64,000 nucleotides of DNA from Escherichia coli (GTDB lineage Bacteria > Pseudomonadota > Gammaproteobacteria > Enterobacterales > Enterobacteriaceae), in NCBI RefSeq assembly GCF_044647545.1, contig NZ_CP172818.1; one strand, given 5' to 3'. Below the pieces are notes generated by a model. The model was not told the DNA's origin, made no database searches, and saw only the letters and a list, made by a program, of their open reading frames with translations. This document shows positions 5,339 through 57,968 of this stretch, one piece after another. The position numbers and the translations under genes were made by a program. Numbering within the stretch: position 1 is the stretch's first letter; each line of letters starts with the position of its first letter.

Positions 5339-6880
<1,542 letters not shown>

Positions 6881-23651: not shown

Positions 23652-26600
23652 GTGAAAGATTTATTAAAGTTTCTGAAAGCGCAGACTAAAACCGAAGAGT
23701 TTGATGCGATCAAAATTGCTCTGGCTTCGCCAGACATGATCCGTTCATGGTCTTTCGGTGAAGTTAAAAAGCCGGAAACCATCAACTACCGTACGTTCAA
23801 ACCAGAACGTGACGGCCTTTTCTGCGCCCGTATCTTTGGGCCGGTAAAAGATTACGAGTGCCTGTGCGGTAAGTACAAGCGCCTGAAACACCGTGGCGTC
23901 ATCTGTGAGAAGTGCGGCGTTGAAGTGACCCAGACTAAAGTACGCCGTGAGCGTATGGGCCACATCGAACTGGCTTCCCCGACTGCGCACATCTGGTTCC
24001 TGAAATCGCTGCCGTCCCGTATCGGCCTGCTGCTCGATATGCCGCTGCGCGATATCGAACGCGTACTGTACTTCGAATCCTATGTGGTTATCGAAGGCGG
24101 TATGACCAACCTGGAACGTCAGCAGATCCTGACTGAAGAGCAGTATCTGGACGCGCTGGAAGAGTTCGGTGACGAATTCGACGCGAAGATGGGTGCGGAA
24201 GCAATCCAGGCTCTACTGAAGAGCATGGATCTGGAGCAAGAGTGCGAACAGCTGCGTGAAGAGCTGAACGAAACCAACTCCGAAACCAAGCGTAAAAAGC
24301 TGACCAAGCGTATCAAACTGCTGGAAGCGTTCGTTCAGTCTGGTAACAAACCAGAGTGGATGATCCTGACCGTTCTGCCGGTACTGCCGCCAGATCTGCG
24401 TCCGCTGGTTCCGCTGGATGGTGGTCGTTTCGCGACTTCTGACCTGAACGATCTGTATCGTCGCGTCATTAACCGTAACAACCGTCTGAAACGTCTGCTG
24501 GATCTGGCTGCGCCGGACATCATCGTACGTAACGAAAAACGTATGCTGCAGGAAGCGGTAGACGCCCTGCTGGATAACGGTCGTCGCGGTCGTGCAATCA
24601 CCGGTTCTAACAAGCGTCCTCTGAAATCTTTGGCCGACATGATCAAAGGTAAACAGGGTCGTTTCCGTCAGAACCTGCTCGGTAAGCGTGTTGACTACTC
24701 CGGTCGTTCTGTAATCACCGTAGGTCCATACCTGCGTCTGCATCAGTGCGGTCTGCCGAAGAAAATGGCGCTGGAGCTGTTCAAACCGTTCATCTACGGC
24801 AAGCTGGAACTGCGTGGTCTTGCTACCACCATCAAAGCTGCGAAGAAAATGGTTGAGCGCGAAGAAGCTGTCGTTTGGGATATCCTGGACGAAGTTATCC
24901 GCGAACACCCGGTACTGCTGAACCGTGCACCGACTCTGCACCGTCTGGGTATCCAGGCATTTGAACCGGTACTGATCGAAGGTAAAGCTATCCAGCTGCA
25001 CCCGCTGGTTTGTGCGGCATATAACGCCGACTTCGATGGTGACCAGATGGCTGTTCACGTACCGCTGACGCTGGAAGCCCAGCTCGAAGCGCGTGCGCTG
25101 ATGATGTCTACCAACAACATCCTGTCCCCGGCGAACGGCGAACCAATCATCGTTCCGTCTCAGGACGTTGTACTGGGTCTGTACTACATGACCCGCGACT
25201 GTGTTAACGCCAAAGGCGAAGGCATGGTGCTGACTGGCCCGAAAGAAGCAGAACGTCTGTATCGCTCTGGTCTGGCTTCTCTGCATGCGCGCGTTAAAGT
25301 GCGTATCACCGAGTATGAAAAAGATGCTAACGGTGAATTAGTGGCGAAAACCAGCCTGAAAGACACGACTGTTGGCCGTGCCATTCTGTGGATGATTGTA
25401 CCGAAAGGTCTGCCTTACACCATCGTCAACCAGGCGCTGGGTAAAAAAGCAATCTCCAAAATGCTGAACACCTGCTACCGCATTCTCGGTCTGAAACCGA
25501 CCGTTATTTTTGCGGACCAGATCATGTATACCGGCTTTGCATATGCAGCGCGTTCTGGTGCATCTGTTGGTATCGATGACATGGTCATCCCGGAGAAGAA
25601 ACACGAAATCATCTCCGAGGCAGAAGCAGAAGTTGCTGAAATTCAGGAGCAGTTCCAGTCTGGTCTGGTAACTGCGGGCGAACGCTACAACAAAGTTATC
25701 GATATCTGGGCTGCGGCGAACGATCGTGTATCCAAAGCGATGATGGATAACCTGCAAACTGAAACCGTTATTAACCGTGACGGTCAGGAAGAGAAGCAGG
25801 TTTCCTTCAACAGCATCTACATGATGGCCGACTCCGGTGCGCGTGGTTCTGCGGCACAGATTCGTCAGCTTGCTGGTATGCGTGGTCTGATGGCGAAGCC
25901 GGATGGCTCCATCATCGAAACGCCAATCACCGCGAACTTCCGTGAAGGTCTGAACGTACTCCAGTACTTCATCTCCACCCACGGTGCTCGTAAAGGTCTG
26001 GCGGATACCGCACTGAAAACTGCGAACTCCGGTTACCTGACTCGTCGTCTGGTTGACGTGGCGCAGGACCTGGTGGTTACCGAAGACGATTGTGGTACCC
26101 ATGAAGGTATCATGATGACTCCGGTTATCGAAGGTGGTGACGTTAAAGAGCCGCTGCGCGATCGCGTACTGGGTCGTGTAACTGCTGAAGACGTTCTGAA
26201 GCCGGGTACTGCTGATATCCTCGTTCCGCGCAACACGCTGCTGCACGAACAGTGGTGTGACCTGCTGGAAGAGAACTCTGTCGACGCGGTTAAAGTACGT
26301 TCTGTTGTATCTTGTGACACCGACTTTGGTGTATGTGCGCACTGCTACGGTCGTGACCTGGCGCGTGGCCACCTCATCAACAAAGGTGAAGCAATCGGTG
26401 TTATCGCGGCACAGTCCATCGGTGAACCGGGTACACAGCTGACCATGCGTACGTTCCACATCGGTGGTGCGGCATCTCGTGCGGCTGCTGAATCCAGCAT
26501 CCAGGTGAAAAACAAAGGTAGCATCAAGCTCAGCAACGTGAAGTCGGTTGTGAACTCCAGCGGTAAACTGGTTATCACTTCCCGTAACACCGAACTGAAA

Positions 26601-27875
26601 CTGATCGACGAATTCGGTCGTACCAAAGAAAGCTACAAAGTACCTTACGGTGCGGTACTGGCGAAAGGCGATGGCGAACAGGTTGCTGGCGGCGAAACCG
26701 TTGCAAACTGGGACCCGCACACCATGCCGGTTATCACCGAAGTAAGCGGTTTTGTACGCTTTACTGACATGATCGACGGCCAGACCATTACTCGTCAGAC
26801 CGACGAATTGACCGGTCTGTCTTCGCTGGTGGTTCTGGATTCCGCAGAACGTACCGCAGGTGGTAAAGATCTGCGTCCGGCACTGAAAATCGTTGATGCT
26901 CAGGGTAACGACGTTCTGATCCCGGGTACCGATATGCCTGCGCAGTACTTCCTGCCGGGTAAAGCGATTGTTCAGCTGGAAGATGGCGTACAGATCAGCT
27001 CTGGTGACACCCTGGCGCGTATTCCGCAGGAATCCGGCGGTACCAAGGACATCACCGGTGGTCTGCCGCGCGTTGCGGACCTGTTCGAAGCACGTCGTCC
27101 GAAAGAGCCGGCAATCCTGGCTGAAATCAGCGGTATCGTTTCCTTCGGTAAAGAAACCAAAGGTAAACGTCGTCTGGTTATCACCCCGGTAGACGGTAGC
27201 GATCCGTACGAAGAGATGATTCCGAAATGGCGTCAGCTCAACGTGTTCGAAGGTGAACGTGTAGAACGTGGTGACGTAATTTCCGACGGTCCGGAAGCGC
27301 CGCACGACATTCTGCGTCTGCGTGGTGTTCATGCTGTTACTCGTTACATCGTTAACGAAGTACAGGACGTATACCGTCTGCAGGGCGTTAAGATTAACGA
27401 TAAACACATCGAAGTTATCGTTCGTCAGATGCTGCGTAAAGCTACCATCGTTAATGCGGGCAGCTCCGACTTCCTGGAAGGCGAACAGGTTGAATACTCT
27501 CGCGTCAAGATCGCAAACCGCGAACTGGAAGCGAACGGCAAAGTGGGTGCAACTTACTCCCGCGATCTGCTGGGTATCACCAAAGCGTCTCTGGCAACCG
27601 AGTCCTTCATCTCCGCGGCATCGTTCCAGGAGACCACTCGCGTGCTGACCGAAGCAGCCGTTGCGGGCAAACGCGACGAATTGCGCGGCCTGAAAGAGAA
27701 CGTTATCGTGGGTCGTCTGATCCCGGCAGGTACCGGTTACGCGTACCACCAGGATCGTATGCGTCGCCGTGCTGCGGGTGAAGCTCCGGCTGCACCGCAG
27801 GTGACTGCAGAAGACGCATCTGCCAGCCTGGCAGAACTGCTGAACGCAGGTCTGGGCGGTTCTGATAACGAGTAA
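23652..27875 (+). CDS. rpoC: DNA-directed RNA polymerase beta' subunit RpoC, 1407 aa
   Basis: ORF track; NADFDGD catalytic motif present. Confidence 0.97.
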
Positions 27876-27896
27876 TCGTTAATCCGCAAATAACGT

Positions 27897-27922
27897 AAAA
27901 ACCCGCTTCGGCGGTTTTTTTA
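27897..27922 (+). terminator. rpoC intrinsic terminator
   Basis: AAAAACCCGC-TTCG-GCGGTTTTTTT. Confidence 0.8.
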
Positions 27923-28108
27923 AACAAATCCAGACTTTGCTTCACGGGAAATATTAAGAAAGGCAGGGCGAAACGAGGAAGAAGCTTTTCGCCCTGGACA
28001 ACATTCCTGCTGACGGCACTACCATAAAAAAACACAACGCTTTCAACAACCTTGCGTTTTTCATCTTCCGTAGCGGCTCGGAATAAATTTACGTTGTTAC
28101 ATTCTGTT

Positions 28109-29242
28109 TCATGGCCTTTGCGAGGCGCGTCCCAGATAGCTGTCCCAGTCTTTCCATACCGGCTGCAAACCCTGAGCAGTTAACGCGGCAGCAACCGCTT
28201 CCGGTCTGCGATCGTCGTGCGGTGAGAACTGTTCCAGCTCGGGGTGATTGTCGGCATAGCCACCTGGCTGCGTTTTCGAAAAAGCGCTGACGTTATTAAT
28301 TGCCAGCGGAATCACGCGATCGCGAAACCACGGTGATTCCCGCGTGGAGAGTGACAGTTCAATCTCCGGTGCAAGCAGTCGGAAGGCGCAGATGGTTTGC
28401 ACTAACTGGCGTTCATCCATAATCGACGCAGGCTCAATGCCGCCAGTACATGGACGCAGGCGTGGGAAGGAGACAGAGTAGCGGCTTTGCCAGTAATGCT
28501 GTTGCAGCCATAGCAAATGTTCTGCAACCATATAGCAGTCAACGCGCCAGCTGTCGGAAAGGCCAATTAGCGCGCCGAGGCCTATCTTATCAATCCCCGC
28601 ACGGCCCAGCCGATCCGGCGTTTCCAGCCGCCAGAAGAAGTCCTGTTTTTTGCCTTTCAGATGATGGCGGGCATAAGTCGCCTCGTGATATGTCTCCTGA
28701 TAAACCATCACGCCATCGAGACCCAGCTGTTTTAGCTCGGCATATTCCGCCTCCGCCAGCGGTTGCACTTCCATCTGTAGTGAAGAGAACTGTTCACGCA
28801 GGGCAGGGAGATGACGACGAAAGTAATCCATCCCCACTTTCGCCTGATGTTCACCAGTGACTAAAAGCAGATGTTCAAAGCCCATCTCCCGTATAGCGGC
28901 GCTTTCCCTGGCAATATCCGCTTCATCCAGTGTTTTGCGCTTGATGCGATTGCTCATGGAAAATCCGCAGTACGTGCAGTCGTTAGCGCAAAGATTGGAA
29001 AGATAAAGCGGGACGTAGAAACTAACTGTGTTGCCAAATCGCTGACGGGTCAGACGCTGCGCTCGCTGGGCCAGTGGTTCCAGATAGCCACTGGCGGCGG
29101 GTGATAGCAATGCCATCATGTCGTCGCGGGTGAGTTGCGAGGCATTTAGCGCCCGCTCTACGTCAGCAGCCGTTTTGCCGTTGATACGCAGGCGGATGTC
29201 GTCCCAGTCCAGTTGTCGCCAGCGATCGCTGAAGGTTTTCAT
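28109..29242 (-). CDS. thiH: 2-iminoacetate synthase ThiH (radical SAM), 377 aa
   Basis: ORF track; CxxxCxxC radical-SAM cysteine cluster (CANDCTYC). Confidence 0.95.
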
Positions 29243-45501: not shown

Positions 45502-47043
<1,542 letters not shown>

Positions 47044-50515: not shown

Positions 50516-50602
50516 CAAATTTAGCAGAAGCCCTGCGCTGGCGCACGCTCCAGCTTCACCGCGCGATAGCACTCGATAGGCGGTCGCACTTACCAGGCCA
50601 GC

Positions 50603-55357: not shown

Positions 55358-55397
55358 CTGTAGGCCACGGATAAGGCATTTACGCCGCATCCGGCAA
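55358..55397. repeat. REP (repetitive extragenic palindromic) element between aceA and aceK
   Basis: CTGTAGGCCACGGATAAGGCATTTACGCCGCATCCGGCAA, canonical REP-like palindrome. Confidence 0.7.

Positions 55398-55423: not shown

Positions 55424-57968
<2,545 letters not shown>

What the first reader, a model, noticed from the sequence alone, without database searches (positions are those of the whole stretch)
27924..28108. No yjaZ/htrC gene between rpoC and thiH
The rpoC terminator ends ~27922 and the thiH stop codon is at 28109, leaving ~185 nt with no ATG-initiated ORF on either strand. In K-12 MG1655 this position carries yjaZ (htrC, b3989, ~540 bp). The interval instead holds a 10-bp-stem hairpin (CAGGGCGAAA...TTTCGCCCTG, ~27961-27995) that could serve as the thiH terminator on the minus strand.
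Basis: partly seen in the sequence, partly recalled or inferred. Interest (0 to 1): 0.35.

Follow-up and report, generated by a model that had tools for sequence, protein, structure and literature searches.

The report
Common yjaZ-sroH-free rpoC-thiH spacer
This E. coli strain lacks the small, non-essential yjaZ-sroH gene islet that K-12 carries between rpoC and thiH, as do about 30% of sequenced E. coli, so the gap is an ordinary and already documented strain difference.

Summary
rpoC ends at 27875 and thiH (minus strand) ends at 28109. The spacer is 233 bp, against 1161 bp in K-12, and the window has no yjaZ in any frame. K-12 has a ~0.93-kb, AT-rich islet here that carries yjaZ and also the convergent small RNA gene sroH, so the window lacks both.

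The absence is common. The islet is in 3741 of 5426 complete E. coli genomes, and 1630 have the contiguous islet-free form. Loss of sroH from the B2+D lineages was published in 2012. The window is nearly identical to ST648-type strains.

It lies in a spacer shared by essentially all E. coli, K-12 included. In K-12 a strong minus-strand RNA 3' end maps 6 nt after it (Term-seq), which supports the terminator idea.

Two side results:
- yjaZ-sroH travels as a pair on plasmids.
- The window's junction (27912-27939) is private. It lacks one G of the rpoC terminator stem. It is one of four unexplained private clusters in this window, and they could be real or assembly artefacts.

Verdict: real, ordinary, already known.

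The parts
23652..27875 (+). rpoC coding sequence (RNA polymerase beta'), last gene of the rplKAJL-rpoBC unit
   Evidence: ORF of 1407 aa. Annotated as rpoC in the near-identical FDAARGOS_497.
27903..27921 (+). rpoC intrinsic terminator. Stem CCGC/GCGG (27903-27906 / 27911-27914), UUCG loop, T7 run (27915-27921). One G shorter than the canonical CCCGC-UUCG-GCGGG.
   Evidence: Sequence. Comparison with K-12, FDAARGOS_497, BS-01, N3 and 26 metagenome contigs, all of which have GGCGGG. Predicted stability is -7.8 against -15.2 kcal/mol for the canonical form.
27922..27940 (.). Private junction AAACAAATCCAGACTTTGC, at the position where K-12 has the 938-bp yjaZ-sroH islet and other islet-free strains have ATGGGNGTTATTCAGAGGGCAAAGTC
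   Evidence: Unique in the window. Absent from 5426 complete E. coli genomes, GTDB species representatives and JGI metagenomes. TCCAGACTTTGC equals the right end of the islet in E69/K-12, and AGACTTTGC is the reverse complement of the GCAAAGTCT in the common islet-free allele.
27941..28108 (.). Spacer shared by essentially all E. coli, both islet-containing and islet-free: the 3' untranslated region downstream of thiH
   Evidence: 5416 of 5426 genomes cover at least 80% of 27920-28108 at 95-100% identity. Nearly invariant across 31 loci, including a sister Escherichia lineage. No Rfam family.
27964..27996 (-). Most likely the 3'-end-forming element for minus-strand (thi) transcripts.
   Evidence: -15.0 kcal/mol, z = -3.5. 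There are no substitutions in the stems in 31 loci. The K-12 Term-seq 3' end at 4190584(-) lies 6 nt after the identical hairpin.
27958..27958 (-). Position homologous to the mapped K-12 RNA 3' end (...CCCUGCCUUUC-3')
   Evidence: Transferred by sequence identity from PMC7815308, supplementary file 1. Not measured in this strain.
28026..28062 (-). Hairpin B: a weaker, G-U-containing hairpin followed by U7 on the minus strand (A-run 28026-28032 on plus). Looks terminator-like, but no mapped 3' end in K-12.
   Evidence: Folds to -14.6 kcal/mol on the minus strand but only -5.5 on the plus strand. There are no Term-seq 3' ends at MG1655 41906xx-41907xx.
28109..29242 (-). thiH coding sequence (2-iminoacetate synthase), last gene of thiCEFSGH
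   Evidence: ORF of 377 aa. 100% identical DNA to thiH of FDAARGOS_497 and other genomes.
27954..28064 (-). Mechanical 36-aa ATG ORF inside the spacer; not considered a gene
   Evidence: No NCBIfam match. Frameshifted by A-run length variants in L011 and L030. Not annotated in the RefSeq records examined.

Best explanation
The window carries the islet-free allele of an old presence/absence polymorphism at the rpoC-thiH convergent junction.

K-12-type strains have a ~0.93-kb, AT-rich islet immediately after the rpoC terminator. The islet holds yjaZ (a protein of retracted or unknown function) and the convergent small RNA gene sroH, which share a bidirectional terminator. This strain belongs to an ST648-like, phylogroup F/B2-type lineage and lacks the islet. 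Here the two convergent transcription units end in a compact 233-bp spacer:
- rpoBC transcripts stop at the rpoC terminator (27903-27921).
- Minus-strand transcripts coming out of thiH run through about 150 nt of conserved 3' UTR and end just after hairpin A (27964-27996, 3' end near 27958).

Shown here: the absence of yjaZ and sroH, the exact indel position, the allele frequencies, the conservation of the spacer, and the mapped 3' end in K-12.

Inferred: that the same 3' end forms in this strain, and the direction of the event. I lean about 60:40 towards this allele being the retained empty site, into which a plasmid-type yjaZ-sroH module was once inserted, rather than a secondary deletion. 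Both alleles have since been shuffled among lineages by homologous recombination.
For: Position and content of the indel:
- K-12 L001 563-1500 (938 bp) replaces window 27922-27930.
- MG1655 annotates yjaZ at 4189786-4190325 and sroH at 4190327-4190487 between rpoC and thiH.
- Rfam finds sroH at 201 bits in K-12 and nothing in the window.
- No YjaZ by tblastn.

Frequency:
- The islet is in 3741 of 5426 complete genomes.
- The contiguous islet-free form is in 1630 and in 26 metagenome contigs.

Literature:
- sroH is inferred lost from B2+D, E. coli C, S. flexneri and S. sonnei (PMC3318445).
- The htrC function has been retracted (PMC11551758).

Lineage of the window:
- 100% identical to FDAARGOS_497, strain 'ST648' and others over the thi operon.
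- No yjaA and no arpA.

Foreign origin of the islet:
- 41.6% GC against 52.6% for the window.
- YjaZ homologues are on 577 plasmids.
- sroH sits next to them on four plasmids of different types.

Age of the polymorphism:
- The sister lineage E69 (thiH at most 93.8% identical to any E. coli) has the islet at the same site, gap-free against K-12.
- Contigs L021 and L025, from that same lineage, have the common islet-free junction.

Terminator role of hairpin A: Term-seq 3' end at 4190584(-), with 74,886-527,736 reads in three conditions.
Against: - The junction itself is not the canonical islet-free junction. It is private to this window, so the strain is not a textbook copy of the common allele.
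- The direction of the event (empty site versus deletion) is not resolved. The published parsimony analysis favoured loss, and the islet is present in a sister lineage.
- Hairpin A has a 13-nt loop and only a moderate U-tract. It fails the simple terminator scan.
- The mapped K-12 3' end is classed 'orphan' and is not higher in thiamine-free medium. It might therefore belong to a separate RNA rather than to thi mRNA.
Confidence: 0.93

Rival explanations
1. The strain lost the islet recently and independently. The private junction would be the scar of a strain-specific deletion from an islet-containing ancestor, not the common islet-free allele.
For: - The junction contains TCCAGACTTTGC, which is the right-end sequence of the islet in E69 and K-12. 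The common islet-free allele instead has the reverse-complement core GCAAAGTCT.
- Independent deletions do occur. BS-01 has K-12-type RpoC and ThiH proteins and a different junction with a 224-bp spacer.
- E. coli C, S. flexneri and S. sonnei also lack sroH.
Against: - The window is identical to FDAARGOS_497 over about 18 kb on each side, and to metagenome contig L033 in rpoC and thiH. Both have the common islet-free junction, so an islet-containing recent ancestor is unlikely.
- No islet-containing genome shows ...CAGACTTTGC joined to TTCACGGGAAATATT.
- The 9 nt AAACAAATC match no known islet end.
Confidence: 0.08
2. The private junction, including the missing G in the rpoC terminator, is a local assembly or polishing artefact. 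The true sequence would be the common islet-free allele.
For: - The variant is found nowhere else.
- It is one of four private clusters. The others are 50522-50598, 55366-55367 and 57118-57134. The background otherwise has no isolated SNP against the nearest relatives in about 53 kb.
- Three of the four clusters sit on hairpins (terminators, a REP element).
- One cluster replaces and extends the AceK C-terminus, giving a protein not on record in a 153-billion-gene collection.
Against: - The window's homopolymer runs in rRNA genes agree with K-12, so the assembly is not generally error-prone.
- The changes are multi-base replacements rather than typical read errors.
- A K-12-guided consensus artefact is not supported at the other sites.
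- No reads are available.
Confidence: 0.5
3. yjaZ is present but was missed: in another frame, degraded, or moved elsewhere.
For: None within the window. The rest of the genome and its plasmids are not available, and YjaZ homologues are frequent on plasmids.
Against: tblastn of two YjaZ/HtrC variants against all six frames of the 64 kb gives a best E-value of 0.55. blastn of the whole islet finds nothing. There is no sroH by Rfam.
Confidence: 0.02

Closest known systems
E. coli K-12 MG1655/W3110 rpoC-yjaZ-sroH-thiH locus (b3988-b3990, b4691)
   Same: Same flanking genes and orientation, and the same rpoC terminator apart from one G. The 168-178 nt thiH-proximal spacer with both hairpins is the same, at about 96-100% identity.
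   Different: K-12 has a 938-bp, 41.6% GC islet carrying yjaZ (179 aa) and sroH (161 nt) right after the rpoC terminator. The window has 9-19 nt of unrelated junction sequence there.
Common islet-free allele of B2/D/F-type E. coli (for example FDAARGOS_497 NZ_CP033850.1, strain N3, 26 metagenome contigs)
   Same: rpoC and thiH are adjacent, with no yjaZ or sroH. The sequence from TTCACGGGAAATATTAAG onward is identical. FDAARGOS_497 is otherwise identical to the window over about 36 kb around the site.
   Different: The canonical junction is GGGTTTTTTTATGGGNGTTATTCAGAGGGCAAAGTC, giving a 241-bp spacer. The window has GG-TTTTTTTAAACAAATCCAGACTTTGC, giving 233 bp.
Independent islet deletion in strain BS-01 (NZ_CP172816.1)
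   Same: An islet-free rpoC-thiH spacer with a non-canonical junction.
   Different: BS-01 has a K-12-type background and junction ...TTTTTTTATACACTTCTTCACGGAAAATATT, giving a 224-bp spacer. Its rpoC terminator is intact.
Term-seq 'orphan' RNA 3' end at MG1655 4190584(-) (Adams et al. 2021, PMC7815308)
   Same: The hairpin sequence CAGGGCGAAAAGCUUCUUCCUCGUUUCGCCCUG and the following CCUUUCUUAA are identical in the window.
   Different: It was mapped only in K-12. The downstream context differs after 10 nt (AAAUUC in K-12, UAUUUCC here). In K-12 the islet with sroH follows, whereas here the rpoC terminator follows within 40 nt.

Membership tests
Islet-free rpoC-thiH allele of E. coli (B2/D/F type) | rpoC and thiH convergent and adjacent, with a spacer of about 0.24 kb | tested here: met
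   233 bp between the stops, against 241 bp in FDAARGOS_497 and N3.
Islet-free rpoC-thiH allele of E. coli (B2/D/F type) | No yjaZ (NCBIfam NF007263) and no sroH (Rfam RF00372) at the locus | tested here: met
   tblastn and blastn are negative. Rfam is negative in the window and positive in K-12. K-12 YjaZ matches NF007263 at 430 bits.
Islet-free rpoC-thiH allele of E. coli (B2/D/F type) | Canonical junction ATGGGNGTTATTCAGAGGGCAA(A/T)(G/T)(T/C)C directly after the terminator T-run | tested here: not met
   The window has AAACAAATCCAGACTTTGC. All 26 metagenome contigs, and all but 3 of the 1630 complete genomes with the contiguous form, fall in the identity band of the canonical junction.
Intrinsic (Rho-independent) terminator - hairpin A, minus strand | G+C-rich stem | tested here: met
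   10-bp perfect stem with 6 G-C pairs, -15.0 kcal/mol, z = -3.5.
Intrinsic (Rho-independent) terminator - hairpin A, minus strand | Short loop (3-8 nt) and a U-rich tract immediately 3' of the stem | tested here: inconclusive
   The loop is 13 nt and the tail is CCUUUCUU (5 U in 8). The element is not called by the consensus scan.
Intrinsic (Rho-independent) terminator - hairpin A, minus strand | RNA 3' end mapped a few nt downstream of the stem | not testable with these tools
   Met for the identical sequence in K-12 (3' end 6 nt after the stem, in three conditions). No data exist for this strain.
Canonical rpoC terminator | CCCGC-UUCG-GCGGG stem-loop followed by U7 | tested here: not met
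   The window has GCGG, one G fewer. The stem is 4 G-C pairs and the predicted stability is -7.8 against -15.2 kcal/mol. The U7 run is intact.
sroH RNA (RF00372) | Covariance-model match at or above 80 bits | tested here: not met
   No match in 27400-28700 even at E <= 1.

The most novel reading that the evidence does not exclude
The private 28-bp junction is real. In that case this strain has re-arranged the empty islet site: part of it now reads as the reverse complement of the common allele, and one G is lost from the rpoC terminator stem, which halves its predicted stability. This lesion would be one of four private, mostly hairpin- or scar-associated lesions in 64 kb (27912-27939, 50522-50598, 55366-55367, 57118-57134), in a background with no ordinary SNPs. 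That would point to a strain-specific mutational process acting on structured intergenic DNA. A possible consequence is read-through from the highly transcribed rpoBC unit into the thi 3' region.
Probability: 0.2. Interest if true: 0.4.

Novelty: already known. Interest (0 to 1): 0.08.

Why it matters
As a finding it matters little. yjaZ and sroH are accessory, the islet-free state is common, and it has been documented.

It is useful mainly as annotation guidance. In islet-free strains nothing should be predicted in the 233-bp spacer except the two terminators. The conserved hairpin at 27964-27996 can be annotated as the minus-strand 3'-end element.

The side results are of modest interest:
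- yjaZ-sroH behaves as a mobile protein/sRNA pair on plasmids. This offers a handle on two genes of unknown function.
- Both alleles at this site are shared between E. coli and a sister lineage.

Tried and rejected
- **Rfam** on 27400-28700 found nothing in the interval. There was only a sub-threshold rsmX-like hit, which is simply the rpoC terminator.
- **The consensus promoter/terminator scan** of 27700-28300 found no sites. Even the rpoC terminator was missed, because of its shortened stem.
- **The private junction** was sought in complete E. coli genomes, GTDB species representatives and JGI metagenomes. It was absent from all of them.
- **An ectopic donor** for the junction within the window was sought and not found.
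- **A template-switch or inversion origin** explains only the 9-mer AGACTTTGC (the reverse complement of GCAAAGTCT). It does not explain AAACAAATC or the lost G.
- **A K-12-guided consensus artefact** was tested at the two other gene-absence sites. The private bases there do not match K-12.
- **General homopolymer error** in the assembly was tested and rejected, because the rRNA G-runs agree with K-12.
- **Looking up the window's unique AceK** to find the source genome returned no record.
- **YjaZ** has no Pfam or PADLOC match and no phage homologues.
- **Covariation in the two hairpins** is uninformative. The stems of hairpin A are invariant, and the changes in hairpin B are not compensatory.
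- **The literature** gave nothing on a thiH 3'UTR sRNA.

Full report
**1. The observation**

- rpoC occupies 23652-27875 (+), and thiH occupies 28109-29242 (-).
- After the rpoC stop comes the terminator: CCGC-TTCG-GCGG (27903-27914) and T7 (27915-27921).
- The stop-to-stop spacer is 233 bp, 42.5% GC.
- In K-12 the same interval is 1161 bp. It contains yjaZ (540 bp, 179 aa) and, on the other strand, the small RNA gene sroH.
- A pairwise comparison places the difference precisely. Window 27800-27921 matches K-12 locus L001 441-562, and window 27931-28249 matches L001 1501-1818. A 938-bp K-12 segment (L001 563-1500) therefore replaces 9 nt of the window.
- tblastn of K-12 YjaZ and of the shorter O157 HtrC against the whole window finds nothing better than E = 0.55. 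The islet DNA finds nothing.

Two details need correcting. There is a mechanical 36-aa ATG ORF at 27954-28064 (-). It has no family match and is frameshifted in other strains. Also, the hairpin is not present 'instead' of yjaZ, as section 2 shows.

**2. What the K-12 insert is, and what is shared**

- Rfam places sroH (RF00372, 201 bits) at L001 1270-1430 on the minus strand. It is inside the insert, convergent with yjaZ, and ends one base after the yjaZ stop at a shared bidirectional terminator. MG1655 annotates it as b4691.
- The window has no sroH even at E <= 1, so the window lacks two genes, not one.
- The insert is 41.6% GC, against 52.6% for the window.
It is almost invariant in 31 loci from diverse lineages, and the stems of that hairpin carry no substitution at all.

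**3. How common the islet-free state is**

- The islet is found in 3741 of 5426 complete E. coli genomes.
- A junction-spanning query shows the contiguous islet-free form in 1630 genomes. A gapped pattern anchored in the rpoC terminator and the hairpin recovered 26 more islet-free contigs from metagenomes.
- Skippington and Ragan (2012, PMC3318445) already list sroH as missing from the 'B2 + D' lineages, E. coli C, S. flexneri and S. sonnei, and they infer secondary loss.
- EcoCyc-based work notes that the original htrC function was retracted (PMC11551758). SroH has no known function, although its deletion mutant is reported to be sensitive to envelope stress (PMC5389530).
- The window belongs to such a lineage. 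Its thi operon is 100% identical to FDAARGOS_497, to the strain named ST648 and to others. It also lacks yjaA and arpA, two phylotyping markers that would lie in this window. By the Clermont scheme (my own knowledge), that fits phylogroup F or B2.

**4. Origin and age of the polymorphism**

- YjaZ (NCBIfam NF007263, 'stationary phase growth adaptation protein'; no Pfam or PADLOC match) has homologues on 577 plasmid records and on no phage records.
- On four plasmids of different kinds, a significant sroH (99-144 bits) sits immediately downstream of the yjaZ homologue in the same convergent arrangement. The four are an 88-kb phage-like plasmid of E. fergusonii, a 2.4-kb ColE1-type plasmid, and conjugative plasmids of Kosakonia and Serratia. 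The proteins are 57-78% identical to K-12 YjaZ.
- The distant Vibrio and Klebsiella homologues (29-36% identity) lack sroH.
- DNA homology between the K-12 islet and these plasmids covers only the yjaZ-sroH core, L001 715-1401.
- yjaZ-sroH is therefore a mobile two-gene module, and the chromosomal islet is one landed copy.
- A genome labelled E. coli E69 has a thiH at most 93.8% identical to that of any complete E. coli. It carries the islet at the same site with no gaps relative to K-12. Divergence is similar to the flanks: yjaZ 91.3%, thiH 93.0%, sroH 98.8%.
- Two metagenome contigs of that same lineage (thiH 98.6-99.6% identical to E69) have the common islet-free junction.
- Both alleles therefore segregate in E. 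coli and in a sister lineage. Each allele has a single recognisable junction structure, so the polymorphism is old and has been moved around by homologous recombination.
- Whether today's islet-free allele is the original empty site or a deletion cannot be decided here. I lean 60:40 to the empty site, for two reasons. The module is demonstrably foreign. Also, only one other species representative among 100,044 had a close yjaZ, though that scan detects only near-identical peptides.
- Independent deletions certainly occur. BS-01 has K-12-type proteins and its own junction.

**5. How the spacer most likely works**

Plus strand:
- rpoBC transcription ends at the rpoC terminator.

Minus strand, downstream of thiH, where two hairpins follow:
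- Hairpin B (28062-28027, then U7) folds to -14.6 kcal/mol on the minus strand but only -5.5 on the plus strand.

Published Term-seq data for K-12 (Adams et al. 2021, PMC7815308, supplementary file 1):
- They list a strong minus-strand 3' end at 4190584.
- Its 50-nt upstream sequence is exactly hairpin A plus CCUUUC.
- Read counts are 130,816 (LB, OD 0.4), 527,736 (LB, OD 2.0) and 74,886 (M63). These are comparable with the sroH terminator.
- There is no 3' end at hairpin B.
- The homologous position in the window is 27958.

Two cautions apply:
- The 3' end is classed 'orphan' and is not higher in thiamine-free medium. It could therefore mark a separate, unannotated RNA rather than thi mRNA.
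- Nothing has been measured in an islet-free strain.

**6. The private junction (unexplained)**

- Outside the rRNA operons, the window is identical to FDAARGOS_497 from 9871 to 46166 except at 27912-27939. There, one G of the terminator stem is missing, and ATGGGTGTTATTCAGAGGGCAAAGTC is replaced by AAACAAATCCAGACTTTGC.
- No complete genome matches this better than 90.2%.
- The exact junction is absent from GTDB representatives and from JGI metagenomes.
- Contig L033 is identical to the window in rpoC and thiH, and it has the common junction.
- The new sequence contains TCCAGACTTTGC, the right-end sequence of the islet in E69. Its core is the reverse complement of the GCAAAGTCT in the common allele. 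An in-place inversion or template switch explains only those 9 nt.
- The shortened stem halves the predicted terminator stability, from -15.2 to -7.8 kcal/mol.

Comparing the rest of the window revealed three more private clusters:
- 50522-50598, where the rrn terminator hairpin is gone.
- 55366-55367, a 2-nt insertion in a REP stem.
- 57118-57134, where the last codons of aceK are changed and the ORF is extended to 588 aa.

None of the three occurs in any complete genome. The AceK variant is not on record in a very large gene collection.

Clusters A (27912-27939), B (50522-50598) and D (57118-57134) lie exactly where K-12 has extra genes (yjaZ, yjaA, arpA). The private bases do not match K-12 there, however. 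The window's rRNA homopolymers agree with K-12. Without reads I cannot tell real strain-specific lesions from local assembly or polishing artefacts, and I rate the two about equally.

**7. Verdict**

The finding is real but ordinary. It is the common, already published islet-free allele of the rpoC-thiH junction, and the hairpin's terminator role is supported by K-12 data. Novelty: already known. Interest: low. The side observations are recorded separately: the mobile yjaZ-sroH module, the trans-lineage polymorphism, the orphan 3' end, and the private lesions.

Noticed in passing
L035 2501-3193; L036 1090-1789; L037 1192-1890; L038 1192-1888 (plasmids); L001 729-1430 (K-12): yjaZ homologues (57-78% aa identity) on four different plasmids are each followed by an Rfam-significant sroH (99-144 bits) in the same convergent arrangement as in K-12. 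The plasmids are an E. fergusonii phage-like plasmid, a 2.4-kb ColE1-type plasmid, and Kosakonia and Serratia conjugative plasmids. yjaZ-sroH therefore looks like a mobile protein/sRNA module. The distant homologues (29-36%) in Vibrio and Klebsiella lack sroH.
   Followed up: partly
window 50522-50598, 55366-55367, 57118-57134: Three further private sequence clusters relative to the otherwise identical nearest genomes. In the first, the rrn terminator hairpin between rrf and yjaB is missing. The second is a 2-nt insertion in a REP stem between aceA and aceK. The third is a stretch about 20 nt shorter at the aceK 3' end, which changes and extends AceK to 588 aa, overlapping iclR. None is in 5426 complete E. 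coli genomes. The AceK variant is not on record in the public gene collection.
   Followed up: partly
window 27958-28108 (minus strand); MG1655 4190584-4190734: In K-12 the RNA 3' end after hairpin A is classed 'orphan'. It is as abundant as the sroH terminator, highest in LB stationary phase, and not raised in thiamine-free medium. The conserved 150-nt stretch may therefore give rise to an unannotated stable RNA (a thiH 3'UTR fragment or an independent sRNA). No promoter-like site was found by the simple scan.
   Followed up: partly
L007 (CP089930.1, 'E. coli E69') versus L021 and L025: A sister Escherichia lineage (thiH at most 93.8% identical to any E. coli) contains both the islet-bearing allele (E69) and the islet-free allele (two metagenome contigs). 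The junction structures are the same as in E. coli. This is a presence/absence polymorphism shared across lineages.
   Followed up: partly
L005 (NZ_CP172816.1, strain BS-01) 1016-1241: BS-01 has K-12-type RpoC and ThiH proteins but lacks the islet, with its own junction (TTTTTTTATACACTTCTTCACGGAAAATATT, 224-bp spacer). This is an independent recent deletion.
   Followed up: yes
window about 50534-50600 and 57144-57190: yjaA (between rrf and yjaB in K-12) and arpA (between aceK and iclR in K-12) are both absent from the window by tblastn. This fits a phylogroup F/B2-type background.
   Followed up: yes
L003 (O157:H7) 789-1232; H126 (strain ET650): O157:H7 strains carry a variant islet with a deletion of about 70 bp that truncates HtrC to 147 aa. 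Strain ET650 has an IS1 inserted in the islet. The islet is decaying in several lineages.
   Followed up: no
window 6345-6360 and 46508-46523: Both 16S rRNA copies in the window carry the variant CATCCACAGAACTTTCCAGAGATGGATTGGTGCC. This differs from both the FDAARGOS_497 copies and K-12 rrsE at this spot. It is probably ordinary rRNA operon microheterogeneity.
   Followed up: no
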